DNA of 35,947 nt from Coleofasciculaceae cyanobacterium CTOTU46641 (GCA_031969515.1 DALYKF010000031.1:1-35947), one strand, 5' to 3'. Positions 7,253 to 28,574 are shown, counted from the first letter of the stretch. The notes: a model not told the origin generated them from the letters alone. A program made the numbers and translations.

Positions 7253-7394
7253 TACAGCAGTTTTTAAGTTGATGAAGTACAGTGCTGAGTTTTCTTAAGG
7301 AAAACTCTAGTTATACCAATTCCCTAAAAGCGGGCAACAATAAGATTTCGTAGTATTCAAAGCCCCTCCTGAATTGGAAGCACAAAATCTGCAT

Positions 7395-7540
7395 GACGAC
7401 CTGATTAAACGTTGGTTGGTCTACCTGGAGATATGGTGCAAATTCGTAATGGGCAGACGCTTATCAACGGTAAGGCTATTGCAGAACCTGATGTGAAGGA
7501 GAAATCAACTTACAACTATAGACCTGTGACAATACCACCA
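7395..7540 (+). pseudogene. Signal peptidase I (LepB-like) C-terminal fragment, frameshifted and truncated
   Basis: The translation DDLIKRW, then after a frameshift LVGLPGDMVQIRNGQTLINGKAIAEPDVKEKSTYNYRPVTIPP, matches the conserved LepB box (RDYIKRVVGLPGD.V...G.L.ING). It is only a fragment. There are stops upstream, and homology ends at the dispersed repeat at 7552. Confidence 0.45.
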
Positions 7541-7551
7541 AAATCTCTCGG

Positions 7552-7586
7552 CAGTCCGCTCCAACAGGATTGTTATACGCCGTTTC
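7552..7586. repeat. Short dispersed repeat, copy 1 (cAGTCCGCTCCAACaGGATTGTTAtacGCCGTTTC)
   Basis: Two other copies are at 9603-9635 and 18165-18188. Copies 1 and 2 share about 33 nt. Confidence 0.7.
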
Positions 7587-7603: not shown

Positions 7604-8014
7604 CTAAACTTGAATGATATCAAAGGTATCACGATCGCCAATCCGATAAAACAAGAAGTCAGAATCGAGGGTGAGAATTTGCCGATACCCAGTCTTTTCA
7701 GCCGCCACAACCAGAGTTGCATCTGCCAAATCCATCGGTCTGTCGCGGTATTGCTCCATCAGTGCCAACAAACGGCTGTAATCACTCTCCTGGATCTCGT
7801 AAACTGTCAGCAGTTTGTCTAACAGAAGCTGCCCCAACTGTTTTTGCATTTGCCAGCCGCCACGATGCAGGGCAAGATACATCGCCTCGGTTAGACATGA
7901 CCAAGTTGTGACGAGAGGTTTTGCCAAACGCATCACGGCACTTTTGTAGGCTTTGTGCTGAGGCTGAGTTCGGTCAACGAGGCACAGCAGAACCCCTGCA
8001 TCACACAGGATCAT
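7604..8014 (-). CDS. vapC: PIN-domain toxin (VapC family)
   Basis: 136 aa. Acidic PIN residues are in the right positions (ILCDAGVLL..D; DATLVVAAE; LTLDSDF). It overlaps the upstream small gene by 4 nt. Confidence 0.8.
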   Translation of the reverse strand: MILCDAGVLLCLVDRTQPQHKAYKSAVMRLAKPLVTTWSCLTEAMYLALHRGGWQMQKQLGQLLLDKLLTVYEIQESDYSRLLALMEQYRDRPMDLADATLVVAAEKTGYRQILTLDSDFLFYRIGDRDTFDIIQV

Positions 8015-8271
8015 AGCTCTAGCCCTTGTTGCCGATACTTGTTGAGCAGGAGTTGTTGATAGTTGCTGGCTGGTTCAGGTGGAGTTACATCTAGGCGATC
8101 AACTGCTTCAAACCATTTTGACCATGCACCTACAAGCGTTTCATCAGGCTGACTATCAGTAATTTCAGCTTGATGCTTGTGAATGACAAAATCAATAAAG
8201 TCACTTACTTGCTGTAAAAGTGGTTCGGAAAGTTGCTGTAATTTAGCAATAGCGGTGTCACGAATGGTCAT
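8011..8271 (-). CDS. Type II antitoxin (DUF2281-like) partner of VapC
   Basis: 86-aa ORF with start/stop overlap ATGA with vapC. The motif LLQQVSDFIDFVIHKHQ resembles DUF2281 antitoxins. Confidence 0.65.
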   Translation of the reverse strand: MTIRDTAIAKLQQLSEPLLQQVSDFIDFVIHKHQAEITDSQPDETLVGAWSKWFEAVDRLDVTPPEPASNYQQLLLNKYRQQGLEL

Positions 8272-8696
8272 AAAAGCACCTCTTTTTCAGCGTCACTCTC
8301 TTTGTACAGAACAGTTTACAAACCCTGTCTCCAATTTCTAACTAGAAATAACAGATTTAAACTGAGCCTATGGGAGCACAAAGCTTACATATTTCAACAC
8401 TAGATAAGATTCACCAGGAATAATGAGACTCTGAATAATCTGGTTGGAATCCATATCCAGGCACCCAAACATCTCCAGGTTACCACTCAGTATCATTATC
8501 TTTGTTCTCATCAGGTTTAACTTCATCAGTTTTATCTATTTGAGTAAGCTGTTGCACTTCCAAGCTCTGTTTTAACGACCAAGCTCACCGGACGCAGACA
8601 ACATTTGCAACCCAACTAACCAAATCGCAGCGTTCCGGTGCAGCGACTTGTTAGCTTGCGACTGAATACATGAAGATTTACGTATACCGATTAAAA

Positions 8697-9338: not shown

Positions 9339-9597
9339 GAGATAGAAGCCTATAACTCCACATCATGCTCTCCATAATAAGCAATTAACTCGTACAGGTC
9401 TTCAACATACTTAACAAACTGCCCCATGTTTGCGAGTAAAACACCTTTATCTAAATTTGGTGGTAAATGTGGATGCCCTGCTTCATTACGACATATTCTG
9501 CTGGTCGAGAACCAGGTCATCATCGAAGAAGATAACTTTGAGGAAGGACTGACCCCAGCCCTGATTGCCGATAACCTTGGCTACAACACCAATCAGC

Positions 9598-9846
9598 TTA
9601 GTCAGTCCGCTCCAACCGGATTGTTATGCCGTTTCTTTGCAAATATGGTTGCAATTGCTTACTCTTGCCTATTCCGTTAGCTTGGGCACACTGCCAAACC
9701 ACGCGATCGCTACTATTGACTTCCAACCCTATCTCTTCAAACAGGACAAAGCGAATATAAACTAACTCAAGCCAGCCACTAGCGGCAAGGCTACCTGCTA
9801 AGACAACAGAATGTCCACGTAAATTATGATCAACCAGAACATTCAT
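9598..9846 (-). pseudogene. DUF5615 (Mut7-C/PIN-like toxin) gene, 3'-disrupted
   Basis: MNVLVDHNL...VVWQCAQANG matches the DUF5615 N-terminal half. The last 10 codons are supplied by the dispersed repeat at 9603-9635. Possible remnants of the C-terminus lie in other frames further downstream. It overlaps the DUF433 gene by 4 nt. Confidence 0.5.
9603..9635. repeat. Short dispersed repeat, copy 2
   Basis: See copy 1. The sequence is cagtccgctccaaccggattgttatgccgtttc. Confidence 0.7.
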
Positions 9847-10223
9847 GCCTTTGATTCAAGTTTAGCCCGTTCTGCCCGGAGTTTTGCCCGAATCACTTCC
9901 GTACCTGGTCTAGGGGGTTTTGCAGCAATGTGAGCAACGAGAGCACGATTCTGCTCCTCATAATATTGTCGTAGTTCCTCGGCTTCCTTAAGGACGGCTT
10001 GGTACTCTGCTTCAACCTCGGCACGATGGGCATCAATGTAAGATAGAGCGGAATTAACCTGTTCATCGGTGAGGCTGAGCATGGCACGAATGAACTTTGG
10101 TGGATACTGCTCTGTCACATAGTCCATCACGTCATACAAAGTAATACGGGTTCCTGAAATTGTCAGTCCCCTCTCTGTACGAATGATAGCTGCTTGCCCA
10201 TCAGAATGCGAAGTCATAGCCAT
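9843..10223 (-). CDS. DUF433-domain protein (antitoxin-like partner of DUF5615)
   Basis: 126 aa. ERGLTISGTRITLYDVMDYV is the DUF433 signature. It has a C-terminal coiled-coil tail. Confidence 0.7.
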   Translation of the reverse strand: MAMTSHSDGQAAIIRTERGLTISGTRITLYDVMDYVTEQYPPKFIRAMLSLTDEQVNSALSYIDAHRAEVEAEYQAVLKEAEELRQYYEEQNRALVAHIAAKPPRPGTEVIRAKLRAERAKLESKA

Positions 10224-10445
10224 AACCTTGGAACAGCTAAGTCTATATTACCTCGCCAAAAAACTGATAGGTATGATGTCTACCCACCAGCTTCTAGTTC
10301 CTTTAAAAGTCCTCTAAATACTTGATTTCACGCCTTCTGTTACCAGCAGGGGAAAGTCTTGCCAGTTTCGCTGCTTCAGAGCCATGCGGATTATCTGAAT
10401 AGGCATCCACAACATCAATAGTGCGATCGCTTACACCAGTGAAAA

Positions 10446-10572
10446 CCCAGCCTACGGCGAACTTGCGATAGCGAAGCGCTGCTGCGAAGCGCAGATCGCA
10501 CTGGACAGCACACAAGCGATCGCTCTTCATATTGCTTGTTGGTTGAGAAACTGAGTTACTGCTTCCACTCCC
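10446..10572. repeat. Composite repeat, B-type unit copy B1 (contains HIP1 sites)
   Basis: cctacggcgaacttgcgatagcgaagcgctgctgcgaagcgcagatcgcactggacagcacacaagcgatcgctcttcat...gagaaactgagttactgcttccactc. Related copies are at 11221-11312, 12431-12573 and 13379-13402. Confidence 0.8.
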
Positions 10573-10589
10573 CTCAACAAAAGGGCTTG

Positions 10590-10778
10590 TTAGCTGGCGG
10601 TTGTATTCAGTAGTAACCATTCTACAAATGCCTCCCGCCCTAGCTCCCCCGATGCGATCGCCAACACCACACGCTCTTGTTCATCTACACAGACGTTAAT
10701 TTCCATTCCATTCAGCACAAGAAAAGTCTCTACGGCAGCATGACCTGTACGTTTGTTTCCATCAGAAACCGCATTATG
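10590..10778 (-). pseudogene. Doc/Fic-family (death-on-curing) toxin remnant, C-terminal half only
   Basis: The translation HNAVSDGNKRTGHAAVETFLVLNGMEINVCVDEQERVVLAIASGELGREAFVEW matches the Doc motif region (HxFx[DN]GNKRT...LNG) and the C-terminus. The frame closes with TAG immediately upstream, and the N-terminal approximately 65 aa are missing. Confidence 0.55.
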
Positions 10779-10989
10779 CTAAACACTGATACAATTGAGC
10801 ATTCTTTGTCAACACATAATTAGCTGCTTCAACAAACTCGCTCTTTTGAGAGTTGAGCCAATCCTCCAAGCTTGCCTTCAATAACACTTCGAGTGCAATC
10901 CCATGCACTGTTGCCAAATCTTGTAGCTTTTGGAATTGGGTGTCTGAAAGGTCAAGGGTAATAGAAGCCAAAGCGATCGCTCTCCTCAT
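10774..10989 (-). CDS. Ribbon-helix-helix (CopG/Phd-like) antitoxin
   Basis: 71 aa. The N-terminal ITLDLSDTQFQKLQDLATVHGIALEVLLKASLEDWL is RHH-like. It sits directly 5' of the Doc remnant. Confidence 0.6.
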   Translation of the reverse strand: MRRAIALASITLDLSDTQFQKLQDLATVHGIALEVLLKASLEDWLNSQKSEFVEAANYVLTKNAQLYQCLA

Positions 10990-11090
10990 GTTTCTGGGTT
11001 AAGTCTAGCATCTACCCCCAATTGGCAGCCTCGTTGTGCAGTCCCAACCCAGGAACGAAGCCAGCTAAGAATCTCCTCGCCTAGGGTTTG

Positions 11091-11312
11091 GTGAAAGGAA
11101 ACGATCGCCCTCTCATTTTATCTTGGCAATCACGTCCACGGTCACAGCCGTCCAGTGCGATCGCGCTTCTAGTTAGTACTGCCAAGAAAAGCGATGCTGG
11201 GTTTCCTTTTGTCAACTCAGCCTACGGCGGTAGGCGATTGCCCTGGACGGCACACAAGCGATCGCTCTTCATATCGCTTGTTGGTTGAGAAACTGAGTTA
11301 TCGTTTCCACTG
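11091..11312. repeat. Composite structured repeat A1+B2 (about 220 bp, imperfect terminal inverted repeats GTGGAAACGAT)
   Basis: The A unit (11091-11220) is almost identical to 13249-13378. The B unit (11221-11312) is related to B1/B3. The A and B arms are partly reverse-complementary (gtccagtgcgatc.gcgcttc). Confidence 0.8.
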
Positions 11313-11339
11313 TGTTGTTAGACCGTGCCTCACGGAACA

Positions 11340-11729
11340 CTACCGATTTACCAATCCTTGCAGTTCACTGATGTCGATATCGAGTCCTTGACGCTTCAGA
11401 TATTGATTCAGATTGATCTGGATGAATAAATCTTTGAGTTCTTCTGCAATCTCTGGGGGTGGACTGCCAGATAATGCCGTTGCGATTAGGCGTTCTGCGG
11501 CTCGTAACTCACCACATTCGATCGCGAGAGATGCAGCGCTACGATGAAGGACAGAGCGAGTGGGTTCAGCATCGAGAACACTAGCAATTAAATTGGCAGC
11601 TTGGGTTTCTTGTTCAAAGGCTTGGCGTGTTAACTGTGCCGCCTGTTCGATCGCACCTCTTAAACGGGCAACTGCCGCTGCTTCGGCTAAATCCATTGCT
11701 TGTTGGTGAAGCGTTTGAATCTGGTTCAT
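11340..11729 (-). CDS. Hypothetical alpha-helical protein (129 aa), downstream gene of a two-gene cassette
   Basis: Ala/Gln-rich helical ORF. It overlaps the upstream 189-aa gene by 4 nt. No recognisable motif. Confidence 0.5.
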   Translation of the reverse strand: MNQIQTLHQQAMDLAEAAAVARLRGAIEQAAQLTRQAFEQETQAANLIASVLDAEPTRSVLHRSAASLAIECGELRAAERLIATALSGSPPPEIAEELKDLFIQINLNQYLKRQGLDIDISELQGLVNR

Positions 11730-12295
11730 TGAAGTAAGGCTCCTTCGGGATTCTGTTTTGCGCTAACAACAGAAATTGGGCGGCTGAACTCTACCACAAT
11801 GATATAGGCTGGCAACCCTTCTGCATCAGATGCGCCAGTTTGTTCAGTTTTCTGCTTGACTCTGGCATTGATCTGACTCCGATTCCCCTTGCGAATTCCA
11901 GAAACCTCCAATCGAGCCATACGCTGGAACGGCAGCAGTGTGCTTGAATCTTGGCTCCCCAGCCAGTAGTCAAATCCAGTTCCCTTACGAGAACGTTCAA
12001 TCACCGTCAGATTGGTCAATTGCAGAATTAATAGGAATGCAATGCCATAAGCCGCTTGCTCGGTCGTATATTCGTCATCATTCCAGCATCGCCTTGCTTG
12101 TTCCGTAACGGGCTGCCAATCTAACTGGAACCGAGCGGAAAATTCTCCTTCGACTTCGAGGATTACTCCTGGCTCATGGGTTTCATCCGTTAGACAAATT
12201 GCACCCGCTTCTGCGATCGCGGCTCCAAAAGCGGGCGTGATTGCAGGAAGCCCTTGATTAAGGCGTTGTAAGTTTAAGATTTGATACTGGCTCAA
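11726..12295 (-). CDS. Hypothetical protein (189 aa), upstream gene of the two-gene cassette
   Basis: Intact ORF bracketed by composite repeats. No family recognised by eye. A possible D...E-x-K-like region (GFDYWL...RLEVSGIRKG) is speculative. Confidence 0.5.
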   Translation of the reverse strand: MSQYQILNLQRLNQGLPAITPAFGAAIAEAGAICLTDETHEPGVILEVEGEFSARFQLDWQPVTEQARRCWNDDEYTTEQAAYGIAFLLILQLTNLTVIERSRKGTGFDYWLGSQDSSTLLPFQRMARLEVSGIRKGNRSQINARVKQKTEQTGASDAEGLPAYIIVVEFSRPISVVSAKQNPEGALLQ

Positions 12296-12430
12296 AACGG
12301 TGTTGCCCTATAGAAACTAGAGGCTCAATTTTACTTGCGATCGCTACAGCTTGAGTCGCTGGCAATAATTTTGCCTTGATTGCCTTCTTCGACTTGGGGG
12401 CACGCCTGAAACTCATAAATCTCGTCGCCC

Positions 12431-12573
12431 CAACCTACGGCGAACTTGCGATAGCGAAGCGCTGCTGCGTTCGCCCTTGGCGTTGCCGAAGGCTAGCGCA
12501 GATCGCACTGGACGGCACACAAGCGATCGCTCTTCATATCGCCTACTGGTTGAGAAACTGAGTTACCGCTTCC
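12431..12573. repeat. Composite repeat, B-type unit copy B3
   Basis: Near-identical to B1, with a 25-nt insertion (ttcgcccttggcgttgccgaaggcta). Confidence 0.8.
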
Positions 12574-12609
12574 ACTCTCTTCGACGAGACGACTTGTTAG
12601 CTGACGGCG

Positions 12610-12999
12610 CTACTCCAGACACTGAAATCCCTTTTCCCCCTTCAATTTGCCATCGAAGCTTACGGTTTGTGTGCAACCCGCCTGTCGAGATACCGCCCCA
12701 ATCAAATAGTCAGAGAAATCAGCCTTGCCCTGCTTGTATCGCTGTAGAGCCTGGTCAATCGTTGAGCGGTTTTCAAATTCAAAAGCCGCACTATGCAACA
12801 TGGACTCCAGGACACTGACGATCTCGTCTTTATGAAAGCCATAATTTGCGCCCCTAAGTACCCAAACCAACTCACACAGAACGATATTGGTGATAAAGCA
12901 AGGCTGATTCTGCTGAATGACTGTAACGGCTTGTTGCCATTGCTGCTCATCATCTCTGGTGAGGTATCGAACGAGGATGTTGGTATCAAGTCCAATCAT
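12610..12999 (-). CDS. vapC: PIN-domain toxin (VapC family)
   Basis: MIGLDTNILVRYL is the PIN N-terminal motif. The likely start is the internal Met at 12999; the ORF track extends to 13020. It overlaps the antitoxin gene. Confidence 0.75.
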   Translation of the reverse strand: MIGLDTNILVRYLTRDDEQQWQQAVTVIQQNQPCFITNIVLCELVWVLRGANYGFHKDEIVSVLESMLHSAAFEFENRSTIDQALQRYKQGKADFSDYLIGAVSRQAGCTQTVSFDGKLKGEKGFQCLE

Positions 13000-13231
13000 T
13001 CGCGCCCTCGGAAATGGCAATTTCCATATCCTCGAGGGAAGCTCGTTGAATGTTGGGTCGATGGAGAATGCCGGATAGGGTTTCTACGGCAACATTGAGG
13101 GGAAAAATTTTGACTTGACCTTCGTTGTCAATCACAAACTCGACTCGGCTACCGCTTACCAGCTTGAGATGCTGCCGAATTTCTTCAGGCAGGGTAATTT
13201 GTCCGGTATCGGTAACTGTTGTACTGAGCAT
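12986..13231 (-). CDS. vapB: AbrB/MazE/SpoVT-type antitoxin (VapB)
   Basis: 81 aa. TGQITLPEEIRQHLKLVSGSRVEF is a swapped-hairpin AbrB-type DNA-binding motif. It is immediately 5' of the PIN gene. Confidence 0.7.
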   Translation of the reverse strand: MLSTTVTDTGQITLPEEIRQHLKLVSGSRVEFVIDNEGQVKIFPLNVAVETLSGILHRPNIQRASLEDMEIAISEGANDWT

Positions 13232-13248
13232 AGTTAGGGTGACTGCAA

Positions 13249-13402
13249 GTGAAAGGAAACGATCGCCCTCTCATTTTATCTTGGCAATCACGTCCACGGT
13301 CACAGCCGTCCAGTGCGATCGCGCTTCTAGTTAGTACTGCCAGAGAAAAGCGATGCTGGGTTTCCTGTTGTCAACCCAGCCTACGACGAGCTTGCGATCG
13401 CA
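13249..13402. repeat. Composite repeat A2 plus truncated B unit
   Basis: It matches 11091-11225 with about 4 mismatches over 130 nt, followed by cctacgacgagcttgcgatcgcac. Confidence 0.8.
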
Positions 13403-13486
13403 CTTTTTTTCTAGCGATCGCTTGACAATTAAGACAGTTGCTACAAGATTAAAATCATATTTTTCCTATTACAAGACAGCAAGATT

Positions 13487-13639
13487 AAAATTCCCTTTTG
13501 CCTAGCATTTCTTTTGCAATCTCCTTACATTTTTCATCTAGTGCATCCTCGTACTTAGATCTTAATGATTTTTCCGTAGGAATTTCTTCTAACCGTTTTT
13601 TCAAATCATCTGTTTGTGGCTTATCTGAATTTTGCATTT
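13487..13639 (-). CDS. Small hypothetical ORF (50 aa) downstream of the NACHT cluster
   Basis: Read by hand: MQNSDKPQTDDLKKRLEEIPTEKSLRSKYEDALDEKCKEIAKEMLGKREF. It is below the ORF-track cutoff, lies in an AT-rich region, and is weakly supported. Confidence 0.2.
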
Positions 13640-13693
13640 TTTCTATTTCTCATCTGTCAGTCGCTTATAAGCAAGAGCGTTAGTAAGCTAATT

Positions 13694-14257
13694 TTAAACA
13701 TCAAATCCATACCTCTCTTTCAAAAAAGCTCTTGTTTTTTCGTCAGGACTTTCCCCATAGCAAGAAGCAACAACTTCTCCATAATCTTCTAAATCAATTG
13801 ACTCAGTTGAATTTAATGCTTGTAGGAATCTTTGTTCAGCAGAAGGATGGATGAGGACAAAATAATATGCCCAACGTCCAGTACTGTCTTTAGCTTTAAG
13901 CTTATGAATTAAATGACCTCGACTTGCAATATGCCGATTAAGATAAGTATCGCCATCAGATGAGGTCGTGCTGTTTCCTTGATTCTTTTCCTGCTCCCAT
14001 TGTTCTAGTTGTAGGAGTGCATGATTGACTGCATCTCGAACCTGATTATTCTCATGCTCCTTCATATTTTCAAGAATTTTCTTCCCTTCAAGGTTTTCCA
14101 CTCCTGCCAATGTATAGGCATAGGCATCAAGGTCAATTTGTTCCCCCTTGCCAAGATTAAGCTGATCCCGAAGAGCATTCACATCTCCCATCCCAACTAA
14201 GGCGAGGAGACAACGGGCGTGCAAGTCATAACCACTGATGTTCTTCTTTGCCATCAT
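13694..14257 (-). CDS. Hypothetical protein with N-terminal HEAT-like repeat, co-transcribed with the NACHT gene
   Basis: 187 aa. It overlaps the NACHT gene stop by 4 nt. The N-terminus resembles a PBS-lyase HEAT repeat (ALVGMGDVNALRDQL...VRDAVNHALLQL). The C-terminal domain is unknown. Confidence 0.55.
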   Translation of the reverse strand: MMAKKNISGYDLHARCLLALVGMGDVNALRDQLNLGKGEQIDLDAYAYTLAGVENLEGKKILENMKEHENNQVRDAVNHALLQLEQWEQEKNQGNSTTSSDGDTYLNRHIASRGHLIHKLKAKDSTGRWAYYFVLIHPSAEQRFLQALNSTESIDLEDYGEVVASCYGESPDEKTRAFLKERYGFDV

Positions 14258-17004
14258 TCATCTCCTTTGCTATTGATTGAAGTGTTTATGATTTGTGTTA
14301 AGGATGATATGACTTGTTCGCCTCCGATCAATGTTAAATAGACCAAAGCTTCATCTCGATCTTCATTGGTTAGCAAATCATCCTGAAAGGCTTTTAGCAG
14401 TGGTTCTATCATTTCGGGGACAAAACAGCCTAATCGACCCATTGCGATCGCGACTAATTGCTTAGGGCTTTCCGGGATATCTGAAGTAATGAGAGATTGT
14501 AGAACTTGAGTATCCTGCGGACGGTGAATCGGCGTAATCAGGGGTAAATCTTTGTGGGGCTTTCTTCCATCTGCAACAGTTGCCCACTGCCTAATCCAGT
14601 CATCAACTTGATTAAAGACAAGCGTTTCAGTTCCACAAACACTCAAAATCAAAGCCGCCCACGTTCGAGAATAGGCATCGCGCCTATCATCTGTTACAAT
14701 TTGCCGTAAGACCTCAAGTTCTTCTTCATTAAAGCGGTAAGCTGTATAGGTGTGGCATGTCTTGGCGCTTGTTAACCATCCCAAAGCCCACAGCACTGCA
14801 AATGAAATAGCCTCATGTTCGCCGCTCTCCTTTGCGGTTTCCAACAATAAGCCTACAGTTTTTGGCAAGAGAGAATCGGGGAGGAAGTCAATCCTGATGT
14901 TAGAGTTCAGTACTTGGGTTCGATAGAATGCGTTCATTAGTTTAAGTGCTGCATCAGCACGGATTTTGATCGAGTTATTATCCTGTAACTTTGTCAAAAG
15001 AGGCTCCAATATCTCGAATGCATTATCCGCGTTAAGCACGTCACCGCTTGTCGTTGCCATCGAGTAAACAGCCCCGATCCTGCTCCGGCGGTTGCCACAG
15101 TATTTTACAAAGCTTTGCAACATCCGTTTTCGGCATCGTTCTGCAAAGCAAGAGCGCATGAGAGAGTACAGAACTTCATCCATGAGTGTGTTCTGTTTTG
15201 TGTTGAACCCATCCAATCTGTTTAGATTATCTGTAGCTGCATCGATGACGGCATCAACGGTTTCACCACTCACATCGGGTTCTTCGACTAGGGTTTGTAG
15301 CGCAAAGATGGATAAAGCACGAGCTTCCCTTTCAGCAGTGAGAGGCGAAGGGAGTAGCATTAACATTGCATCATCAGCAGTGATACCACTTTTTCCGAAT
15401 TTACCGTCTTTTCGACGAGGTAAGGAACCAATACAAAAGCGAATGACTTCCTGCCAATAACCGGCAGTTACAGGTTCTGTTTTTGTTACAAGTCCCCAAA
15501 AATCGACTTTTCTCTCTGCAATTTCAATCTCATGCACTAGCTGGTGCAAGCGCTGTAGAACTTCTACCCCTTCAGAGAAAATACGACCATTCAGTAATGC
15601 CTGGGCTGCAAAATACTCCTGGAACGATTGATGAAAAAATTGGACTTCATCGCAATCCATTTGGTCTCGTATACTAGTTCCTGCAATGGTTAGCAACCCA
15701 ATCTGGCTGAGAACTAAGTCATACCATTCTTCAGGAGAATACCGCTGTATTCTGCTTGTTGCTTTGTTGGCATAAAACTCTTCGATCGCTTCAATCACCT
15801 GTGACTCTTGCCAGTGTTGAGCACCATCCAAGCGCATCTGGTAAGCAAGGTATTCCAGGTGAGGCAGGATTTCATTATTGGGTTTGCTGACATAGCGGTC
15901 GTCCGAAATAGGACGACGTTTAATCATCAAGTCTACTGCTCGACGATAGAAATCTCCCCTCCGATCACGTGGCGAAATACTGTCTTGGAGCGCTAATTGA
16001 GTGATGAGAGTGAGGGGAAATACGTTTTCGCATAGGGTGGCTACTCTGCGGTCACTACAAACAAAAGATTCGAGAGCATTGGATAGAGATGCCTTTCCTA
16101 GAAATTTTGCAAAGTTCTGAGCAAATTCTTTCTTCTCAGAGCCTCTCAGAGGCGCTACATTAATGTGCTTGAAGGAACGCAGTGAGTCTGCGATAGTATT
16201 GAATCCAAAAACTCTAGAGGTGAGAACGATCGGGATTGGTTCATGGATGTTCGCAATCAGTTGAGCAAGCTGCCGTCGTTTCCGACTGGATGGAATTTCA
16301 TCCAGTCCATCGACTAGAAGTAAAACCTGTCCTTCTGACATTTTCTGTTCGAGCAGATCTGTCAGTAAGCGACGAGGCTCATTAGCGTGATAACCCAACT
16401 TTTGTAGTTGATACTCGATTAAATGGCTCAAACTGCACTCAAAGTCAGTGGCTAGCAGATCGCGACAGAATAGAACCACAGGTATCCAAGATTGATCCGG
16501 TAATGCCGCTTGATTTTCAGAGATTCTAGTCGAATCCTCTGTATGCAAAGGTGACAATGGATGCTTATCGAAATAACTATAAGCCAGAAAACGTAGAAGA
16601 GTTGTCTTACCACAACCCGGATCTCCCACGATTACTAATCGGGCTTCTGACGCTAACTGACTACTGATTTTGCAAACGGTTGGCTCTGGTTGTTGCAAGA
16701 GGTGCCGGATCGGCGATCTATCAAAACGCAAGGCACTCGTAAAGCTATCGCGGAATTGCTGATGAACTTGTTCTACATCAGTTGATTCAAGTTGAAAAAT
16801 TTGGCGCAGTGTAGATTGCTCAACCCGTTGGACATTGGTGGTGCTATTCCTGGCTGATGGGTTGTCTTGTTCAACATCTGTTTCAAGAAGAACGGAATCA
16901 GGGCGAGGATCGTAAGTCAGCAGCAATGGTAAATCGATGTATAGATCTTCGATCGGGAAATCGGCTGATCCAACTTGCTGTTGAATCAACAGTCCAACCT
17001 CCAT
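14254..17004 (-). CDS. NACHT-family STAND NTPase with C-terminal HEAT/ARM-like repeats
   Basis: 916 aa. Walker A is LVIVGDPGCGKTTLL. Walker B is VLLLVDGLDEI. An approximately 130-aa N-terminal region of unknown function precedes the NTPase. The C-terminal region is a long helical repeat. Confidence 0.8.
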   Translation of the reverse strand: MEVGLLIQQQVGSADFPIEDLYIDLPLLLTYDPRPDSVLLETDVEQDNPSARNSTTNVQRVEQSTLRQIFQLESTDVEQVHQQFRDSFTSALRFDRSPIRHLLQQPEPTVCKISSQLASEARLVIVGDPGCGKTTLLRFLAYSYFDKHPLSPLHTEDSTRISENQAALPDQSWIPVVLFCRDLLATDFECSLSHLIEYQLQKLGYHANEPRRLLTDLLEQKMSEGQVLLLVDGLDEIPSSRKRRQLAQLIANIHEPIPIVLTSRVFGFNTIADSLRSFKHINVAPLRGSEKKEFAQNFAKFLGKASLSNALESFVCSDRRVATLCENVFPLTLITQLALQDSISPRDRRGDFYRRAVDLMIKRRPISDDRYVSKPNNEILPHLEYLAYQMRLDGAQHWQESQVIEAIEEFYANKATSRIQRYSPEEWYDLVLSQIGLLTIAGTSIRDQMDCDEVQFFHQSFQEYFAAQALLNGRIFSEGVEVLQRLHQLVHEIEIAERKVDFWGLVTKTEPVTAGYWQEVIRFCIGSLPRRKDGKFGKSGITADDAMLMLLPSPLTAEREARALSIFALQTLVEEPDVSGETVDAVIDAATDNLNRLDGFNTKQNTLMDEVLYSLMRSCFAERCRKRMLQSFVKYCGNRRSRIGAVYSMATTSGDVLNADNAFEILEPLLTKLQDNNSIKIRADAALKLMNAFYRTQVLNSNIRIDFLPDSLLPKTVGLLLETAKESGEHEAISFAVLWALGWLTSAKTCHTYTAYRFNEEELEVLRQIVTDDRRDAYSRTWAALILSVCGTETLVFNQVDDWIRQWATVADGRKPHKDLPLITPIHRPQDTQVLQSLITSDIPESPKQLVAIAMGRLGCFVPEMIEPLLKAFQDDLLTNEDRDEALVYLTLIGGEQVISSLTQIINTSINSKGDE

Positions 17005-17094
17005 CCGCGAATAGCGGTCAGCTTCTTGCTTTAAATATCTGACTAATGCCTGTTGGGTTCTTTCCTTTATCCGTTCCCGTCCGGACGACTCCAG

Positions 17095-17553
17095 TCAATC
17101 TTCAGGCTGAGCACCAAAGTAAAACTTGGCATTTGAACCCGTCTGAATCACCTGAGATTTGGGATCATTCACCTGCAAACCCTGTCCAGTAAAAATTTGC
17201 TGCACATTTCTAGCATTTACCTCATCAAACCGGACTAGGACTTGATAAATCTCTTGCGCTATTGGTTGCACCATGCTGACGAATTCAGGATTCTCCATTT
17301 CCTTGAGCAGATAATCCTGGATTTGTTTAAGTTCTGGTTCAGATCCTTTTGCAGCAGCCTCTAAAACCTTATCGGCTCGTGGTTTTCCTTTGAAACACCA
17401 ATTCCACACCACCTGTCCCAACTTCTGAATTTGTGCAGAGGCTGCTTCTACAAGCTTTTCACCTAATTTGCTGCCTGCACCTTCATAAAGTTTGTCCAAA
17501 ATGATTTTGGCGATTGGGGCTGCTAAGACTGGAGTGATAATTGGATCAAGCAT
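17095..17553 (-). CDS. Hypothetical helical protein (152 aa) immediately upstream of the NACHT gene
   Basis: Intact ORF 90 nt upstream of the NACHT gene on the same strand. No motif recognised. Confidence 0.5.
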   Translation of the reverse strand: MLDPIITPVLAAPIAKIILDKLYEGAGSKLGEKLVEAASAQIQKLGQVVWNWCFKGKPRADKVLEAAAKGSEPELKQIQDYLLKEMENPEFVSMVQPIAQEIYQVLVRFDEVNARNVQQIFTGQGLQVNDPKSQVIQTGSNAKFYFGAQPED

Positions 17554-17702
17554 ACGGTTTAAGGAATAGAGGTCACGTTATCTGTTCTACACTATTGCTG
17601 TCGCAACATCCATTGTCTTGCTAATCGTCTCATCTAAACTTGTGCTTTTGAATACCAAAAGACGAATTTTCAGCTACACCCTACCGGGACATGAAGCAAC
17701 AT

Positions 17703-17769
17703 AACTATTATTAGACAGAAACTTTCCGCCTAAGATCCCATAGTGGGTGGATAGGCAGAATGATTCAGC
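17703..17769. repeat. 67-bp direct repeat, left copy, bounding the PanA islet
   Basis: aactattattagacagaaactttccgcctaagatcccatagtgggtggataggcagaatgattcagc. It matches 19422-19488 with about 7 mismatches. Confidence 0.8.
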
Positions 17770-17879
17770 ATAACACCCAAAATTTAATACTTATGCAGAT
17801 TATTTCTGCAAAATACGCTGCTCAAGCTGAATAACCAGAATCTTTCCGCATATTTTCAGATTCCTTACGGAGGTGAGAG

Positions 17880-18120
17880 GGGCAGGTTTCTGCTTCGACA
17901 CAAAATCAAGCCCTCAGTGCCTTGCTATTTCTCTATCGTGAAGTACTCAATCTTAACATGGCAGGCATTGATGCTGTTCGAGCCAAAGGACCTCAGTCTG
18001 TGCCAACCGTGTTGACCAAATAGGAAGCGATCGCAGTAATCCAACAGTATGTCATTGGTCGTGCGGTTCTACAAATTTATCCTCTTACGCACTTTCAGGG
18101 TCTGTTTTGATGGTGAAGTT
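17880..18120 (+). pseudogene. Possible degraded tyrosine recombinase/integrase fragment
   Basis: The translation ALSALLFLYREVLNLNMAGIDAVRAKGPQSVPTVLTK*EAIAVIQQY loosely fits the integrase patch LLY.TGLR.SEL..L...D.D.....V.R.KG.K.R.VPL. It has an in-frame stop and is weakly supported. Confidence 0.25.
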
Positions 18121-18164
18121 GAGCGGCTGTAAGCAAGCTCTGTATCTACACCAAGAGCTTTTAG

Positions 18165-18188
18165 AAGTCCGCTCCAACCGAATTGTTA
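18165..18188. repeat. Short dispersed repeat, copy 3 (agtccgctccaaccgaattgttag)
   Basis: It shares its core with copies at 7552 and 9603. Confidence 0.6.
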
Positions 18189-18264
18189 GACAGAGTAATT
18201 TAAAGCATCTTATGAAAGAATAAAATCTATAAATGGAGCGAAACGTATTGAATGAGACTTACAC

Positions 18265-18879
18265 TCAAGGTACTGGATATATTTTGTGATACCTTTCCCA
18301 CCAAACCAAATAAAAATGCCCTTGTAGCTTTATACCCCAAGCTCTGATGGTATTAGCAAATCTAAACCGAAAAGCCGTATCGTATTCTTCTAAACCGATT
18401 TCGATCCACCTATCCTGAGCTTCTTGCACCAAAGTAGTTAGCTCTTGATGGTGATGCTTAGGTACAGTTTTACCACCCTTAGCAGGTGTTTTTTGCTCAA
18501 ATAAGATTTCAGACCAAGTTGATTTTTCCAACAAACTAAAATTTGGAAGTATTTGGGTTTGCCATTCTTCCTCAGTCCAACATCTTTGTTCTCGCCATGA
18601 CCACTCTCCTTCCAAGTCAGACACAGTAGTACACCAAGTCAAGTTACAAGTTATTGCAAATGATTCTTCGCTAGGAAGATATAAAGACTTATTTTTACTT
18701 GGCTCTTCCTGAACCTTAACGACCTTCAAGGAAAGTTCAGGTATTGGCGCTATTTTCACAGTTTTGGTTACCAAATTTTCCACGCTAGACGAAAATCTTA
18801 CCGACTTTGCCTTGCGTGCCTGAGCTTTTTCTTCTTGCCTTTGCTTCCTTCTCTCAGCTTTGGAAGGTTTATCCGTCAT
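18265..18879 (-). CDS. Hypothetical protein (204 aa), candidate toxin partner of the Panacea-domain antitoxin
   Basis: Overlaps the upstream PanA-like gene by 4 nt. It has a basic N-terminus (KAERRKQRQEEKAQARKAK) and a Trp-rich C-terminal domain. No known family recognised. Confidence 0.55.
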   Translation of the reverse strand: MTDKPSKAERRKQRQEEKAQARKAKSVRFSSSVENLVTKTVKIAPIPELSLKVVKVQEEPSKNKSLYLPSEESFAITCNLTWCTTVSDLEGEWSWREQRCWTEEEWQTQILPNFSLLEKSTWSEILFEQKTPAKGGKTVPKHHHQELTTLVQEAQDRWIEIGLEEYDTAFRFRFANTIRAWGIKLQGHFYLVWWERYHKIYPVP

Positions 18880-19310
18880 AGGCTCGAATAATATTCATGC
18901 ATTGCAGCTAAGGGGATAACCTTATCACACCTCTCTGTAGGTTTCAGGTCGCCTCTAGCGTCTTTCCAAGGAGACTCCATATGAGTTAACTCACTTAACC
19001 ACTGCCCACTCTTGTCTTGGAGTGCCTCTAGAACTTTGTCAATAGAGTCTTGTTGATTGGGGGTTAAAGCATCAATGTCCCCATCAGCAAAGGTATCTTT
19101 ATTAACCTTAAATTGATCTCGATGATACCCATACAGAATAGGTACTACAGGACCATTCGCCCAAGCCTGAATATCTTCGTCAAACAAGGGGCTTTCATCC
19201 CAAACAAGAGACCAAGCTTGACTGTAATAAACAAGCTTTTGAAGCTTCATCGCAGTCATTTCGCCTGTTTTAGTTAGGATATATTTCGCCACATCCACAG
19301 CACGTGCCAT
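18876..19310 (-). CDS. Panacea-domain (DUF4065, PanA/SocA-like) antitoxin
   Basis: 144 aa. KLQKLVYYSQAWSLVWDESPLFDEDIQAWANGPVVPILYGYH matches the DUF4065 core (LQKLLYfaqgw...lf.e.feAW.hGPVvp.vY). Confidence 0.75.
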   Translation of the reverse strand: MARAVDVAKYILTKTGEMTAMKLQKLVYYSQAWSLVWDESPLFDEDIQAWANGPVVPILYGYHRDQFKVNKDTFADGDIDALTPNQQDSIDKVLEALQDKSGQWLSELTHMESPWKDARGDLKPTERCDKVIPLAAMHEYYSSL

Positions 19311-19421
19311 GTTGTCCCCCTTGTAGCTTTTAGCGAGCTAATAAACAATTATAGCATACTAGATCGTTTGTACTGCAATGCTGAGTGGATTATGGTTGCT
19401 GCTCAAAACCTTGCTCTGTTT

Positions 19422-19488
19422 AACTATTATTAGACTGAAAATTTCCCCCTAAGATCCAATAGTGGGTGGATATGCAGAACAATTCAGC
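19422..19488. repeat. 67-bp direct repeat, right copy
   Basis: aactattattagactgaaaatttccccctaagatccaatagtgggtggatatgcagaacaattcagc. It lies immediately 3' of the major vault protein gene stop. Confidence 0.8.
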
Positions 19489-22382: not shown

Positions 22383-23657
22383 TTAGAAATTAATGGCTTC
22401 ATTTGGACCCACTAAAGATATATAAGGTTCAGAAAAGTATTGATTAGCAACGGCTTGAGCGATTTCTGGAGTAACATTAGTAACGTCCTCCTGAAACTGG
22501 GTATCAAACTCAATCCCTAACCCCAGCGTCTCATACCAACCGTAGATTTGAGCAAGTTGAGCATTCGTTTGTTTCCCTAAAGCATACTGACCTAAAAGCT
22601 TATTCGTTGAAGTCTGAAGTTCATCAATACTCAGAGAAGACGTACAAAGGCGTTCAACTTCTGCACGTAGACCCTCTAGCGCTATGGTTGTATTTTCCGG
22701 TGCCGTACCCATATAGACCACGAACGTAGATGCCGACTGACGCGTCGGATAAAATGCAGAAACGTCATAGGCTAACCCTCGTTTTTCCCGCAGTTCCACA
22801 AACAAGCGACTGGAAAGACCATTTCCTAAGTAAGTATTGAGTAATTTTAAGGCAGCATAGTTCGGATCTTTGACGGCTGAAGCGAGATAGCCTAGCATAA
22901 CAATAGATTGCTGAGTTTCTTGAGGTGTAATAACTCGGCTAGGTTGAGATTTAATCAACGGTAAAACGGGTTGATTTACAGGTGTTTGAGGCGCTTGCCA
23001 ATCCCAAAATACGCTCGTAATCTGCTCGATCGCTTCCGCTGGAGTAACGCGACCTGCAACACTAATGACTAGGTTATCAGGACGGAAATAGGTTTGATGA
23101 TAGTCCTCTAGATCACTCCGCAATAACTTAGCGATCGCTGCTTCAGTTCCTAAAATTGAGAGACCATAGGGATGGTCTTGATACATTGCCTGTCGTAACT
23201 GCTCAAAGGCAATATTAAACGGTTGCTCTTTTTGAGAACGAATGTCTTGAATGGTTAAATGTCGTTCGAGTTCTACTTCAGTTTCTGGAAAACTCGGATA
23301 TCGCAACATCTGCCCTGCTAACTCTAACATTTCAGGCCAGTCTGTAGAAACAGTCTTGAGTGAGAGCAAAAAGTAATCCGTAGCTGTATCCGCACTAAGT
23401 TGAGCGCCAACTGACTCAACTCGTTCAGCAATTTCAATGGATGATAACTTCTGTGTTCCTTTCGTTAGTACGGCTGAAAGTAAGTGAGAAAGTCCAGCTT
23501 TTTCGCGGGATTCCCACTGACTCCCTGCTCGAATAAATAGACGAGTCGCAATAATATCTGCGGCTGAATTTTCTATAGCAATTACCACAATACCATTATC
23601 TAAAACCGTGCGGTGGATAATTTGCTGTTGTTCCGGAGCGGTCACATTTTGAGGCAT
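22383..23657 (-). CDS. M16-family peptidase, non-catalytic (beta-like) subunit
   Basis: 424 aa with the M16 fold, but the zinc motif position reads GLSHLLSAVLTKGT (no HxxEH). Confidence 0.75.
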   Translation of the reverse strand: MPQNVTAPEQQQIIHRTVLDNGIVVIAIENSAADIIATRLFIRAGSQWESREKAGLSHLLSAVLTKGTQKLSSIEIAERVESVGAQLSADTATDYFLLSLKTVSTDWPEMLELAGQMLRYPSFPETEVELERHLTIQDIRSQKEQPFNIAFEQLRQAMYQDHPYGLSILGTEAAIAKLLRSDLEDYHQTYFRPDNLVISVAGRVTPAEAIEQITSVFWDWQAPQTPVNQPVLPLIKSQPSRVITPQETQQSIVMLGYLASAVKDPNYAALKLLNTYLGNGLSSRLFVELREKRGLAYDVSAFYPTRQSASTFVVYMGTAPENTTIALEGLRAEVERLCTSSLSIDELQTSTNKLLGQYALGKQTNAQLAQIYGWYETLGLGIEFDTQFQEDVTNVTPEIAQAVANQYFSEPYISLVGPNEAINF

Positions 23658-24005
23658 TTTTGTTGTTGGTTGTTAGTTGTTAGTTGTTAGTTGTTAGTTG
23701 TTGGTTGTTGGTTGTTAGTTGTTAGTTGTTAGTTGTTAGTTGTTAGTTGTTGGTTGTTGGTGATTTGTTTTTAACCAATTTACCCAATTACTAACACTCC
23801 CACCCCCACTCCCCACTCCCCACTCCCCATTTGGTTGTTAGTTATTATATTATTTTCTAAATGCCTGCTACACATTAATCGCCGCGTCTTCGACTCTCCG
23901 CGTCATCAGCATCTATAGCGAACATAAATAAAATTAGTATTAGTCGAACACCAAACAGCAAACAACAAACAACCAACAACCAACAACCAACAACCAACAA
24001 CAAAA
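23658..24005. repeat. STRR heptamer array with a large inverted-repeat organisation between the two M16 genes
   Basis: (A/G)GTTGTT units occur about 14 times at 23660-23760. CCCCACT repeats occur at about 23800-23835. AACAACC/CAACAAC units occur at 23950-24003 and are the reverse complement of the first block. Confidence 0.8.
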
Positions 24006-28449: not shown

Positions 28450-28574
28450 GAGGGGAGTTAGGGGGAGTGGGGAAGAGAATTAAGTGTACCTCACCTATTT
28501 GAGAAATGCTATATATTGGTTATTAGTTATTTACAAACAACAAACAACCAACAACAAGCAACAAGCAACAAACC

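What the first reader, a model, noticed from the sequence alone, without database searches (positions are those of the whole stretch)
10440..13402. Integron-like cassette array: same-strand toxin-antitoxin pairs separated by 135-220-bp structured composite repeats
Three consecutive two-gene modules (RHH antitoxin plus Doc remnant; unknown 189-aa plus 129-aa pair; AbrB-type VapB plus PIN VapC) are all on the minus strand. Gaps between them and the repeats are only 18-130 nt. Each module is separated by copies of one composite repeat: an A unit of about 130 bp, a B unit of about 125-145 bp, or both fused (11091-11312). The A and B arms are partly reverse-complementary (gtccagtgcgatc.gcgcttc), and the unit ends form imperfect terminal inverted repeats (gtgGAAACGAT / ATCGTTTCCac). 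The repeats could therefore fold into long bulged hairpins, as attC recombination sites do, and TA-rich cassette arrays are typical of chromosomal integrons and CALINs. No integrase gene is in the window, and the canonical attC R-box signatures are not obvious. The alternative explanation is a cyanobacterial MITE family containing HIP1 sites that has colonised a TA island.
Basis: partly seen in the sequence, partly recalled or inferred. Interest (0 to 1): 0.75.

Follow-up and report, generated by a model that had tools for sequence, protein, structure and literature searches.

The report
Decayed cyanobacterial integron with scar repeats
The toxin-antitoxin genes lie in a worn-out, strain-variable integron-type gene-cassette array of a filamentous cyanobacterium, but the conspicuous A/B repeats between them are duplicated scar DNA (partly a fragment of a signal-peptidase gene), not the recombination hairpins or a jumping element.

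Summary
The A and B repeats are real, at the stated coordinates, and far beyond chance. They are neither attC hairpins nor a MITE.

- **B units.** The last 39-59 nt are an antisense piece of a signal-peptidase-I gene (lepB/traF-like). Intact copies of that gene end a TrwC-relaxase operon in other contigs. The rest of B is HIP1-rich filler.
- **A units.** A is the conserved 5' leader of another cassette (72-aa plus retropepsin-like genes) in related genomes.
- **TIR and distribution.** The "terminal inverted repeat" is lepB codons SYRFH. There is no target duplication. The B probe hit one contig in each of the two related genomes.

The integron idea is right for the locus, though. The window holds:
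- an integron-integrase remnant (17877-18047);
- beside it, a conserved attI-like block ending in G|TT at four independent junctions with different cassettes;
- a co-oriented array (7.3-19.5 kb) in which most cassettes end in an inverse-core box (YTAAC-AA);
- one complete attC-like hairpin (8656-8570) and several truncated ones.

A sister strain lacks exactly the interval between two B copies and carries a chimeric B. The repeats probably act as homologous-recombination substrates.

Verdict: a decayed chromosomal integron, ordinary in kind, with unusual scar repeats.

The parts
7293..7539 (+). Decayed fragment of a signal peptidase I gene (lepB/traF-like, about nt 185-413), frameshifted, at the left edge of the island next to the His-kinase gene
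   Evidence: Pfam Peptidase_S26 hit. 84% DNA identity to the intact gene in L010. Absent, together with 7540-7578, from sister haplotype L022.
7540..7578 (-). D8 copy 1: truncated attC-like 5' half (R'' GTATAAC, spacer AATCC, L'' TGTTGGAGCGG) after the PIN cassette
   Evidence: Repeat family D8; alignment A5.
7604..8271 (-). PIN toxin plus DUF2281 antitoxin cassette
   Evidence: Pfam.
8570..8656 (-). Complete attC-like hairpin: AGCTAAC-AAGTC-GCT[G]CACCGGA[A]CGC...GCGTCCGGTGAGC-TTGGTC-GTTAAAA
   Evidence: Folding. It is the only hit of 11 bp or more in 134 kb scanned with an attC-geometry scanner. Its geometry matches the aadA-type attC printed in PMC2117344.
8697..9338 (-). RNase H1-like cassette. 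Its start is a G|TT junction (around 9357) shared by two haplotypes that carry different upstream cassettes.
   Evidence: Pfam; junction comparison.
9578..9629 (-). D8 copy 2: truncated attC-like 5' half (GCATAAC-AATCC-GGTTGGAGCGG) after the DUF433/DUF5615' pair
   Evidence: A haplotype breakpoint falls here.
9598..10223 (-). DUF433 antitoxin-like gene plus a truncated DUF5615 gene (223-nt deletion relative to Hap 2)
   Evidence: Pfam.
10446..10589 (+). B1 repeat: core (10446-10459), HIP1-rich filler, then lepB-derived 10531-10589
10589..10595 (-). Inverse-core-like box AGCTAAC at the end of the Doc remnant. TTAGCTGGC (10590-10598) is the inverted partner of GCCAGCTAA (11060-11068), and the two bracket the 71-aa/Doc' cassette.
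10590..10989 (-). 71-aa gene (putative antitoxin, unverified) plus a 42-aa Doc (Fic/DOC) remnant
11091..11312 (+). Fused A2+B2 repeat. A is 11091-11230. B has an internal deletion; its lepB-derived part is 11273-11311.
11317..11323 (-). Inverse-core-like box GTCTAAC after the 129-aa gene
11340..12295 (-). 189-aa plus 129-aa gene pair of unknown function
   Evidence: No significant Pfam, NCBIfam or PADLOC hit.
12429..12596 (+). B3 repeat with a 24-nt internal insert; lepB-derived part is 12538-12596
12596..12602 (-). Inverse-core-like box AGCTAAC, 7 nt after the vapC stop. Box, spacer and the next base (AGCTAAC-AAGTC-G) are identical to the RNase H attC-like site.
12610..13231 (-). vapB (MazE/AbrB-type) and vapC (PIN) cassette
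   Evidence: Pfam.
13249..13404 (+). A4 repeat plus core plus a 16-nt stub of B. A haplotype breakpoint lies at 13404|13405.
13405..17704 (-). 4.3-kb block next to attI (152-aa, 916-aa NACHT/nSTAND3 ATPase, 187-aa and 50-aa genes). Hap 2 has a 234-aa gene here instead.
17705..17876 (-). attI-like region: conserved with L015 (92%) and L013 (86%), ending in ...AATAG|TT
17877..18047 (+). Integron integrase (intI) pseudogene remnant, aa about 57-112, divergent from the array
   Evidence: NCBIfam TIGR02249, E=1.5e-13. tblastn with full-length IntI relatives. Those relatives exceed the TIGR02249 cut-off.
18049..18110 (+). C-terminal remnant of the same signal-peptidase gene, fused to the intI remnant
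18113..18199 (-). D8 copy 3: attC-like site of the SocA cassette (GTCTAAC-AATTC-G-GTT[G]GAGCGG...CCGCTCAAC-TTCACC-). The R' box has decayed here; L010 has GTTATAA at that position.
18265..19423 (-). SocA/Panacea antitoxin plus 204-aa toxin cassette. Its start, TTAAACAGAG, is complementary to its own inverse core, CTCTGTCTAA.
19424..19488 (-). Second, partial copy of the attI end (D10 copy 2), with its own G|TT junction

Best explanation
The finding lies in the middle of a cassette island of about 12 kb (about 7.27-19.49 kb). The island sits between a hybrid histidine-kinase gene and a vault-protein gene in a Coleofasciculaceae cyanobacterium. It is best read as a decayed chromosomal integron.

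**What the island contains**
- A remnant of the integron integrase gene on the + strand.
- Immediately beside it, an attI-like block where cassettes were joined at G|TT.
- An array of toxin-antitoxin and defence-type cassettes, all on the - strand. Most of them still end in an inverse-core (R'') box, YTAAC-AA.
- Only one cassette (RNase H) keeps a complete attC-like hairpin. Others keep 5' halves (the D8 family).

**What the A and B repeats are**
- They are not recombination sites. They are pieces of one decayed module, A - core - filler - lepB', that has been duplicated inside the array.
- B is the R'' box of the preceding cassette fused to an antisense 39-59-nt fragment of a conjugative-element signal peptidase gene, followed by HIP1-rich filler.
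- A is the 5' leader that precedes a 72-aa/retropepsin-like cassette in related genomes.

**How they work today (inference)**
- They act as passive direct repeats. RecA-type recombination between copies deletes, duplicates or swaps blocks of cassettes.
- The toxin-antitoxin modules counter-select large deletions.

**Shown versus inferred**
- Shown: the sequence origins, the junctions, and a strain that carries the B1xB3 recombinant.
- Inferred: past IntI activity, the order of events, and recombination between the repeats as the present mechanism.
For: **1. Integrase remnant.** 17877-18047 matches TIGR02249 'integron integrase' (E=1.5e-13, profile positions 57-112). Full-length relatives P0361, P0241, P0362 and P0336 exceed that family's cut-off. 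L013 keeps aa 1-146 of the same gene, starting about 200 nt from the junction.

**2. attI.** A block of about 170 nt is conserved in the window, L015 and L013, plus a 65-nt copy at 19424-19488. All four end at ...AATAG|TT and are then followed by unrelated DNA starting TTATGT, TTAAAC, TTGGAC and TTAGAC.

**3. Cassette ends.**
- TAACAA occurs on the - strand within 80 nt after 6 of 9 cassette-final stop codons (0.3 expected).
- The SocA cassette start is complementary to its own R'' box at 9 of 10 positions.
- The 71-aa/Doc' cassette is bracketed by perfect inverted 9-mers.

**4. attC-like sites.**
- 8656-8570 has the 7/5/L''-with-bulge...L'/6/7 geometry of the aadA-type attC quoted in PMC2117344.
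- D8c3 reads GTCTAAC-AATTC-(G)GTT[G]GAGC...GCTCAAC, against aadA GTCTAAC-AATTC-GTT[C]AAGC...GCTTAAC.

**5. Strain variation at the same chromosomal site**. Hap 2 lacks 10601-12428, and its single B is B1-like on the left and B3-like on the right.

**6. B is partly lepB.** 12538-12600 is 86% identical to intact lepB in L010 (12538-12572: 97%). The intact proteins (P0001-P0014) read ...DRLLVEKLSYRFHPPQRNDLVVF.... Those genes end a TrwC/SNase operon.

**7. A is a cassette leader.** It lies directly upstream of the 72-aa gene in L006 (85% identity) and L013 (70%).

**8. Locality.** The B 19-mer hits one contig in each of the two related genomes among 185,579 species genomes. All copies in L029 have one orientation.
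Against: - Only one complete attC-like hairpin was found. A hit of that strength (13 bp or more) turns up somewhere in about 1 of 9 shuffled windows.
- Several strain breakpoints are not at G|TT. 13404|13405 and the Hap 2 intI' end lie next to HIP1 sites. The D8c1 and D8c2 breakpoints lie at the R'' side, where integron recombination is not expected.
- The vapBC, PIN and DUF433 cassettes show no start/R'' complementarity.
- The integrase remnant lacks the region holding the IntI-specific extra domain.
- IntegronFinder's attC model could not be run.
- How the A-B-lepB' module was multiplied is not established.
- The B1xB3 difference fits insertion as well as deletion.
Confidence: 0.6

Rival explanations
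1. A decayed end of a conjugative or integrative element has become a general recombination and defence-island hotspot. On this view the lepB fragments are scars of repeated integration and decay of TrwC-type elements. TA modules accumulated by illegitimate and HIP1-associated recombination. The intI fragment is just one more remnant, and integron recombination did not build the array.
For: - Intact lepB lies at the variable end of a TrwC/SNase operon.
- lepB pieces lie at both edges of the island and inside it.
- The A-B-lepB' module sits at the island edge in another genome, where it also collects an IS and a MITE.
- Several breakpoints abut HIP1 sites.
- Most cassette junctions lack a complete attC.
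Against: - Four independent G|TT junctions occur at one conserved block beside the intI remnant.
- R'' boxes follow most cassettes.
- There is cassette start/R'' complementarity.
- The attC geometry at 8656-8570 and D8c3 matches the reference site.
Confidence: 0.2
2. The A-core-B composite is itself a long, non-canonical recombination site. It would be either an unusually large attC or the site of another recombinase acting at the 14-nt core, so that each cassette is [A - genes - B] bounded by core copies.
For: - The core CCCAGCCTACGGCG is present at every A|B junction, at the ends of B-only copies and at the end of the A-only copy.
- The composite folds better than shuffles (z = -3.3 and -4.1).
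- All copies are co-oriented.
- The vapBC cassette is flanked by B3...A4, as if circularly permuted.
Against: - B alone and A alone do not fold significantly (z = -0.9 and -1.9).
- The structure comes from one HIP1-centred 16-nt inverted repeat.
- The ends do not form R boxes with 5/6-nt spacers.
- 39-59 nt of B is antisense lepB coding sequence.
- A is conserved as a gene leader in a distant genome that has no B.
- A copies with other upstream DNA keep only 10-12 nt of the core.
Confidence: 0.08
3. A/B is a HIP1-containing cyanobacterial MITE family that has colonised a TA island.
For: - The fused copy has 11-nt imperfect terminal inverted repeats and folds into a long hairpin.
- Metagenome contigs break at the repeats.
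Against: - The right 'TIR' is lepB codons and is degenerate in the other copies.
- There is no target-site duplication.
- The B probe hit a single contig in each of the two related genomes, and the second B probe found no true relatives in metagenome contigs.
- All copies share one orientation.
- Genuine transposable elements in the same module in L031 show clear 52-nt TIRs with a 7-bp duplication, and a MITE with an 8-bp duplication.
Confidence: 0.05

Closest known systems
Sedentary chromosomal integrons (e.g. the Vibrio cholerae superintegron with VCR repeats and TA cassettes)
   Same: Chromosomal location; a co-oriented cassette array next to a divergent intI/attI platform; many toxin-antitoxin and defence-type cassettes; a lineage-specific family of similar attC sequences (here the D8 family); cassette content that differs between strains.
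   Different: The integrase is reduced to a 57-aa remnant. Most attC sites are truncated or replaced. The array is small (about 10 cassettes). The most conspicuous repeats (A/B) are not attC sites but duplicated scar DNA that includes a gene fragment.
CALINs and 'pseudo-integrons' (clusters of attC sites without a working integrase; intI pseudogenes; PMC4889954, PMC2426708)
   Same: A cassette cluster whose integrase is lost or decayed. Both papers report integrons in Cyanobacteria; the abundance of intI pseudogenes is from PMC2426708.
   Different: CALINs are defined by two or more attC sites detected with the IntegronFinder model, which could not be run here. Only one complete attC-like hairpin is evident.
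Cyanobacterial MITEs and HIP1-associated small repeats
   Same: Short, HIP1-containing, hairpin-forming non-coding repeats in intergenic DNA of a cyanobacterium.
   Different: No consistent TIRs, no target-site duplications, not dispersed, all in one orientation at one locus, and partly derived from a coding gene.
Conjugative-element signal peptidase (LepB/TraF-like, Peptidase_S26) at the end of TrwC relaxase operons
   Same: The B repeat, 7293-7539 and 18049-18110 are 79-97% identical in DNA to such genes (L008-L010).
   Different: Only non-functional fragments remain here, on the strand opposite to the cassette genes.

Membership tests
Integron (platform) | intI: a tyrosine recombinase of the IntI family with the IntI-specific additional domain | tested here: inconclusive
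   The remnant best matches TIGR02249/NF011946 integron integrase (E=1.5e-13), but covers only profile positions 57-112. Full-length relatives pass the cut-off. The region carrying the IntI-specific domain is deleted.
Integron (platform) | attI next to and divergent from intI, with cassettes joined at G|TT | tested here: met
   Four junctions end ...AATAG|TT and are followed by different cassettes: three GTTRRRY-perfect and one GTTATGT. In L013 intI starts about 200 nt away on the opposite strand.
Integron (array) | Cassettes co-oriented, each ending in an attC with R''(RYYYAAC)-L''...L'-R'(GTTRRRY), unpaired spacers and extrahelical bases | tested here: inconclusive
   Orientation is met. R''-like boxes follow 7 cassettes. 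There is one complete site (8656-8570) and one lacking R' (D8c3), both with canonical spacing and a bulge in L''. The other sites are truncated.
Integron (array) | Detection of attC sites by the IntegronFinder covariance model | not testable with these tools
   The model is not in Rfam, and Rfam scans gave nothing. A home-made geometry scanner was used instead.
Integron (array) | Cassette-level presence/absence between related strains at the same locus | tested here: met
   Hap W and Hap 2 differ by whole cassettes between the same His-kinase and vault-protein genes.
attC site (applied to the A/B repeats) | 57-141 nt imperfect hairpin whose ends are the R''/R' boxes | tested here: not met
   The sites between an ORF end and the next cassette are 108-257 nt. 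B3 folds with z=-0.9 and A4 with z=-1.9. There is no R' GTT at the distal end and no 5/6-nt spacer geometry. The interior is lepB antisense sequence.
MITE | Terminal inverted repeats present in all copies | tested here: not met
   GTGGAAACGAT/ATCGTTTCCAC occurs only in A2-B2. Other B copies read ACCGCTTCCAC or ACTGCTTCCAC, which is lepB codons SYRFH.
MITE | Target-site duplication flanking the copies | tested here: not met
   No direct repeats flank any copy. Compare the IS (TSD TCTCAAC) and the MITE (TSD GTATTCAA) in L031.
MITE | Many dispersed copies in varied orientations in the genome | tested here: not met
   The B 19-mer hits one contig in each of the two related genomes. There are no copies in the other 24 kb of the window. 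All copies in L029 have one orientation. The window's own complete genome was not available.
Type II toxin-antitoxin modules | Adjacent small antitoxin and toxin genes with recognised domains | tested here: met
   vapB/vapC (MazE, PIN), DUF2281/PIN, DUF433/DUF5615', SocA-Panacea/204-aa and the Doc remnant all match. The 71-aa 'RHH' gene and the 189/129-aa pair have no domain support.

The most novel reading that the evidence does not exclude
The A-core-B composite could be a working recombination site of a new kind: about 220-290 nt, with crossover in the shared 14-nt core. A cyanobacterial integron-type or other recombinase would use it to move [A - TA genes - B] units. That would make this a cassette system with long composite sites rather than a decayed classical integron.
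Probability: 0.07. Interest if true: 0.75.

Novelty: new member of a known kind. Interest (0 to 1): 0.4.

Why it matters
- It documents, with strain-level comparisons, a chromosomal integron in a mat-forming cyanobacterial family at a late stage of decay. The integrase is gone, attI is still recognisable, attC sites are half erased, and the toxin-antitoxin and defence cassettes are retained.
- It shows that once site-specific recombination is lost, ordinary direct repeats made of scar DNA can take over as the places where cassette blocks are gained and lost.
- It is a practical warning for genome scans. The most eye-catching repeats in such an array need not be the recombination sites. Short R''/G|TT signatures and a small integrase remnant several kilobases away carried the real signal.

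Tried and rejected
- **Rfam.** Gathering and permissive scans found nothing relevant.
- **Strict attC search.** An RYYYAAC/GTTRRRY inverted-pair search gave mostly chance hits in coding DNA.
- **Promoter and terminator scan.** No promoter or terminator consensus in A or B, and no excess over shuffles.
- **Metagenome scan.** A B 21-mer gave two contigs with no similarity to the window, so these are chance matches.
- **A as lepB 5' end.** I considered whether A is the N-terminal part of lepB with frameshifts. Rejected: the intact genes and their upstream DNA share nothing with A or the left half of B.
- **B ending at a G|TT junction.** I considered that B ends at a G|TT cassette junction at the core. 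Rejected as a clean boundary, because 10-12 nt upstream of the TT stay conserved in unrelated contexts.
- **Plus strand as integron top strand.** Rejected on ORF orientation, intI geometry, spacer lengths and bulge positions. The site after lepB in L010 is ambiguous, however.
- **PADLOC.** Scans of the unknown proteins were uninformative.
- **HIP1 palindrome.** The palindrome CCAGTGCGATCGCACTGG is not present as such in any fetched locus.

Full report
**1. The observation**

The repeats are real.
- Unit A (about 139 nt) occurs at 11091-11229 and 13249-13388.
- Unit B occurs at 10446-10572, at 11217-11312 (with an internal deletion) and at 12429-12572 (with a 24-nt internal insert).
- A and B overlap on a shared 14-nt core, CCCAGCCTACGGCG. 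The only fused copy is 11091-11312. The A copy at 13249 is followed by the core and a 16-nt stub of B.
- Probes from both units have no chance matches in shuffled sequence.

The genes between them are all on the minus strand.
- vapB (MazE/AbrB type) and vapC (PIN) are confirmed.
- The 42-aa ORF is a genuine Doc remnant. The same DNA in a Coleofasciculus MAG (L004) encodes an intact 127-aa Fic/DOC protein.
- The 71-aa 'RHH' protein and the 189/129-aa pair match no family.

**2. What B is made of**

B1 and B3 stay similar to each other for about 28 nt beyond the reported end of B. In the Coleofasciculaceae MAG locus L006, the sequence to the right of B runs on into a signal peptidase I reading frame.

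A search with that conceptual protein found intact 185-aa LepB proteins, 80-89% identical. Their genes lie at the end of a conserved operon with a TrwC relaxase and an SNase-like nuclease, that is, in a conjugative or mobilisable element.
- At DNA level, 12538-12600 is 86% identical to the intact gene (12538-12572: 97%).
- The homology starts inside a HIP1 site at codon about 57 (DRLLVEKLSYRFHPPQRNDLVVF).
- The left half of B and all of A have no counterpart in the intact loci.

The A/B complementarity is a single 16-nt perfect inverted repeat centred on HIP1. It accounts for the good folding of the composite (z = -3.3 and -4.1). B alone and A alone fold no better than shuffles.

More lepB pieces lie at 7293-7539 and 18049-18110, at the two edges of the variable region.

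**3. What A is**

A lies directly upstream of a 72-aa gene that is followed by a retropepsin-like (Asp_protease_2) gene. This holds in L006 (85% identity) and in the more distant L013 (70% identity, with no B present). In the window, A2 still carries that gene's ribosome-binding region (GAGGAGATTCT) before the sequence switches to the 71-aa/Doc' cassette. A is thus a cassette leader that has been copied.

**4. Not a MITE**

- The B 19-mer hits only one contig in each of the two related genomes among 185,579 species genomes.
- There are no copies elsewhere in the window.
- In the 20-kb locus L029, all of the five or more copies share one orientation within one array.
- There are no target-site duplications.
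- In another genome (L031), the same A-B-lepB' module is interrupted by a real IS (52-nt TIRs, 7-bp duplication) and a real MITE (8-bp duplication). These show what transposable elements look like in this DNA.

**5. The locus is integron-derived**

*Integrase remnant.* At 17877-18047 the + strand encodes [45 protein letters not shown]. Its best NCBIfam hits are the two integron-integrase models (TIGR02249, E=1.5e-13). Full-length relatives found with a profile of such remnants pass the TIGR02249 cut-off. L013 keeps residues 1-146.

*attI-like block.* The 170 nt next to the remnant are conserved in L015 (92%) and L013 (86%). A 65-nt copy of its end lies at 19424-19488. All four copies end at ...AATAG|TT and are followed by unrelated DNA beginning TTATGT, TTAAAC, TTGGAC and TTAGAC. 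This is the pattern expected of an attI site that has received different cassettes.

*Geometry.* All genes from 17553 down to 7604 are on the minus strand, divergent from the integrase remnant. This is the canonical integron arrangement.

*Cassette ends.*
- TAACAA occurs on the minus strand within 80 nt after six of nine cassette-final stop codons, where 0.3 are expected. A seventh lies in the truncated DUF5615 gene.
- The SocA/Panacea cassette begins TTAAACAGAG and ends with CTCTGTCTAAC, complementary at 9 of 10 positions.
- The 71-aa/Doc' cassette is bracketed by TTAGCTGGC and GCCAGCTAA.
- The RNase H cassette is joined to different upstream cassettes in two strains at AG|TT.

*attC-like sites.*
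- The site after the RNase H gene (8656-8570) reads AGCTAAC-AAGTC-GCT[G]CACCGGA[A]CGC...GCGTCCGGTGAGC-TTGGTC-GTTAAAA.
- This has the 7/5/L''-with-bulge...L'/6/7 layout of the aadA-type attC printed in PMC2117344: GTCTAAC-AATTC-GTT[C]AAGC...GCTTAAC-TCAGGC-GTTAGAT.
- It was the only hit of 11 bp or more in 134 kb scanned. Hits of 13 bp or more arise in 7 of 60 shuffled windows, so on its own it is only suggestive.
- The D8 repeat family (7578, 9629 and 18191 in the window; 3151 in L006) consists of attC 5' halves: R''-AAKYY-(G)GTTGGAGCGG. Copy 3 also has the matching L' (CCGCTCAAC), but its R' has decayed.

**6. Strain comparison**

Exact-protein look-ups recovered the same chromosomal locus from several assemblies. 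Relative to the window, haplotype 2 (L015/L023, L016, L022, L024; 96-99% identical in shared parts) shows these differences:
- it lacks 7272-7578;
- it lacks 10601-12428;
- it has a 234-aa gene in place of 13405-17702;
- it has XisH/XisI in place of 18035-19488;
- it has a VapB/PIN' pair in place of 9358-9626.

Its single B copy is B1-like on the left (flank, no 24-nt insert) and B3-like on the right. That is what recombination between the two direct repeats would produce.

Not all breakpoints are at G|TT. Some abut HIP1 sites, and the D8c1 and D8c2 breakpoints lie at the R'' side.

**7. Interpretation**

The best reading is a decayed chromosomal integron in which site-specific recombination no longer operates. 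Duplicated scar DNA (the A - core - filler - lepB' module) now supplies the homology for cassette-block rearrangements, and the TA modules oppose loss.

How the module was multiplied remains inferred. Possibilities are Campbell-type integration of excised circles, unequal crossing-over, or cassette duplication while the integrase still worked.

The main rival is a non-integron recombination hotspot at a decayed conjugative-element end. It explains the lepB fragments, but not the four G|TT junctions at one conserved block beside an intI remnant.

Integrons and intI pseudogenes are already known in cyanobacteria (PMC4889954, PMC2426708). This is therefore a new member of a known kind, with an unusual kind of inter-cassette repeat.

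Noticed in passing
window 17877-18047 and 17705-17876: An integron-integrase pseudogene remnant and a conserved attI-like block lie outside the finding's coordinates.
   Followed up: yes
window 19499-22198 (with 22383-25301): An 899-aa homologue of the eukaryotic major vault protein (Vault repeats plus shoulder domain) lies next to two M16 peptidase genes. It forms the conserved right flank of the island.
   Followed up: no
window 14254-17004, 13694-14257, 17095-17553: A 916-aa NACHT/nSTAND3-type ATPase with small partner genes forms the block next to attI. The sister haplotype has a 234-aa predicted membrane protein there instead.
   Followed up: partly
window 12538, 13394-13404; L015 about 5380: Several rearrangement breakpoints fall inside or within 3 nt of HIP1 (GCGATCGC) sites: the lepB/B junction, the A4 stub end, and the Hap 2 end of the intI remnant. 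HIP1 may mark recombination-prone spots.
   Followed up: partly
proteins P0005 and P0015 (intact LepB homologues): Two otherwise intact LepB proteins carry an 8-aa in-frame insertion (SPSGTLRE / LPTGTLRD) exactly at the HIP1 site where B joins lepB.
   Followed up: no
L031 8075-10020 and about 10040-10165: An IS-like element (52-nt TIRs, TSD TCTCAAC, 264-aa ORF with no Pfam match) and a MITE of about 125 nt (TIR GGTGCATCCCA, TSD GTATTCAA) are inserted in the A-B-lepB' module of another genome.
   Followed up: partly
window 23645-23784, 23933-24016, 27666-27777, 28522-28591, 4777-4846: Heptanucleotide tandem arrays (AACAACC / TTGGTTG type) lie in intergenic regions, in both orientations, flanking the M16 peptidase and RTX-repeat genes.
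   Followed up: no
window 9430-9600 (+ strand): A fragment of an XisI gene, 98.6% identical over 70 nt to the intact XisI of the sister haplotype, sits between cassettes.
   Followed up: partly
L029 14263-17691: In the Coleofasciculaceae MAG the array ends at an AAA_15/AAA_21 plus DUF4435 gene pair followed by a DNA methylase gene.
   Followed up: no
L010 7866-7960: The intact element-borne lepB gene is followed by an AAC...GTT-bounded bulged hairpin related to the D8 family. Its polarity is ambiguous, and a DUF433 gene follows on the same strand.
   Followed up: partly
one search hit list: All of the 120 best database matches to the intI remnant are 100 aa or shorter and contain only the N-terminal SAM-like domain. 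This may reflect a widespread family of decayed intI genes in cyanobacteria, or a length bias of the search tool.
   Followed up: partly
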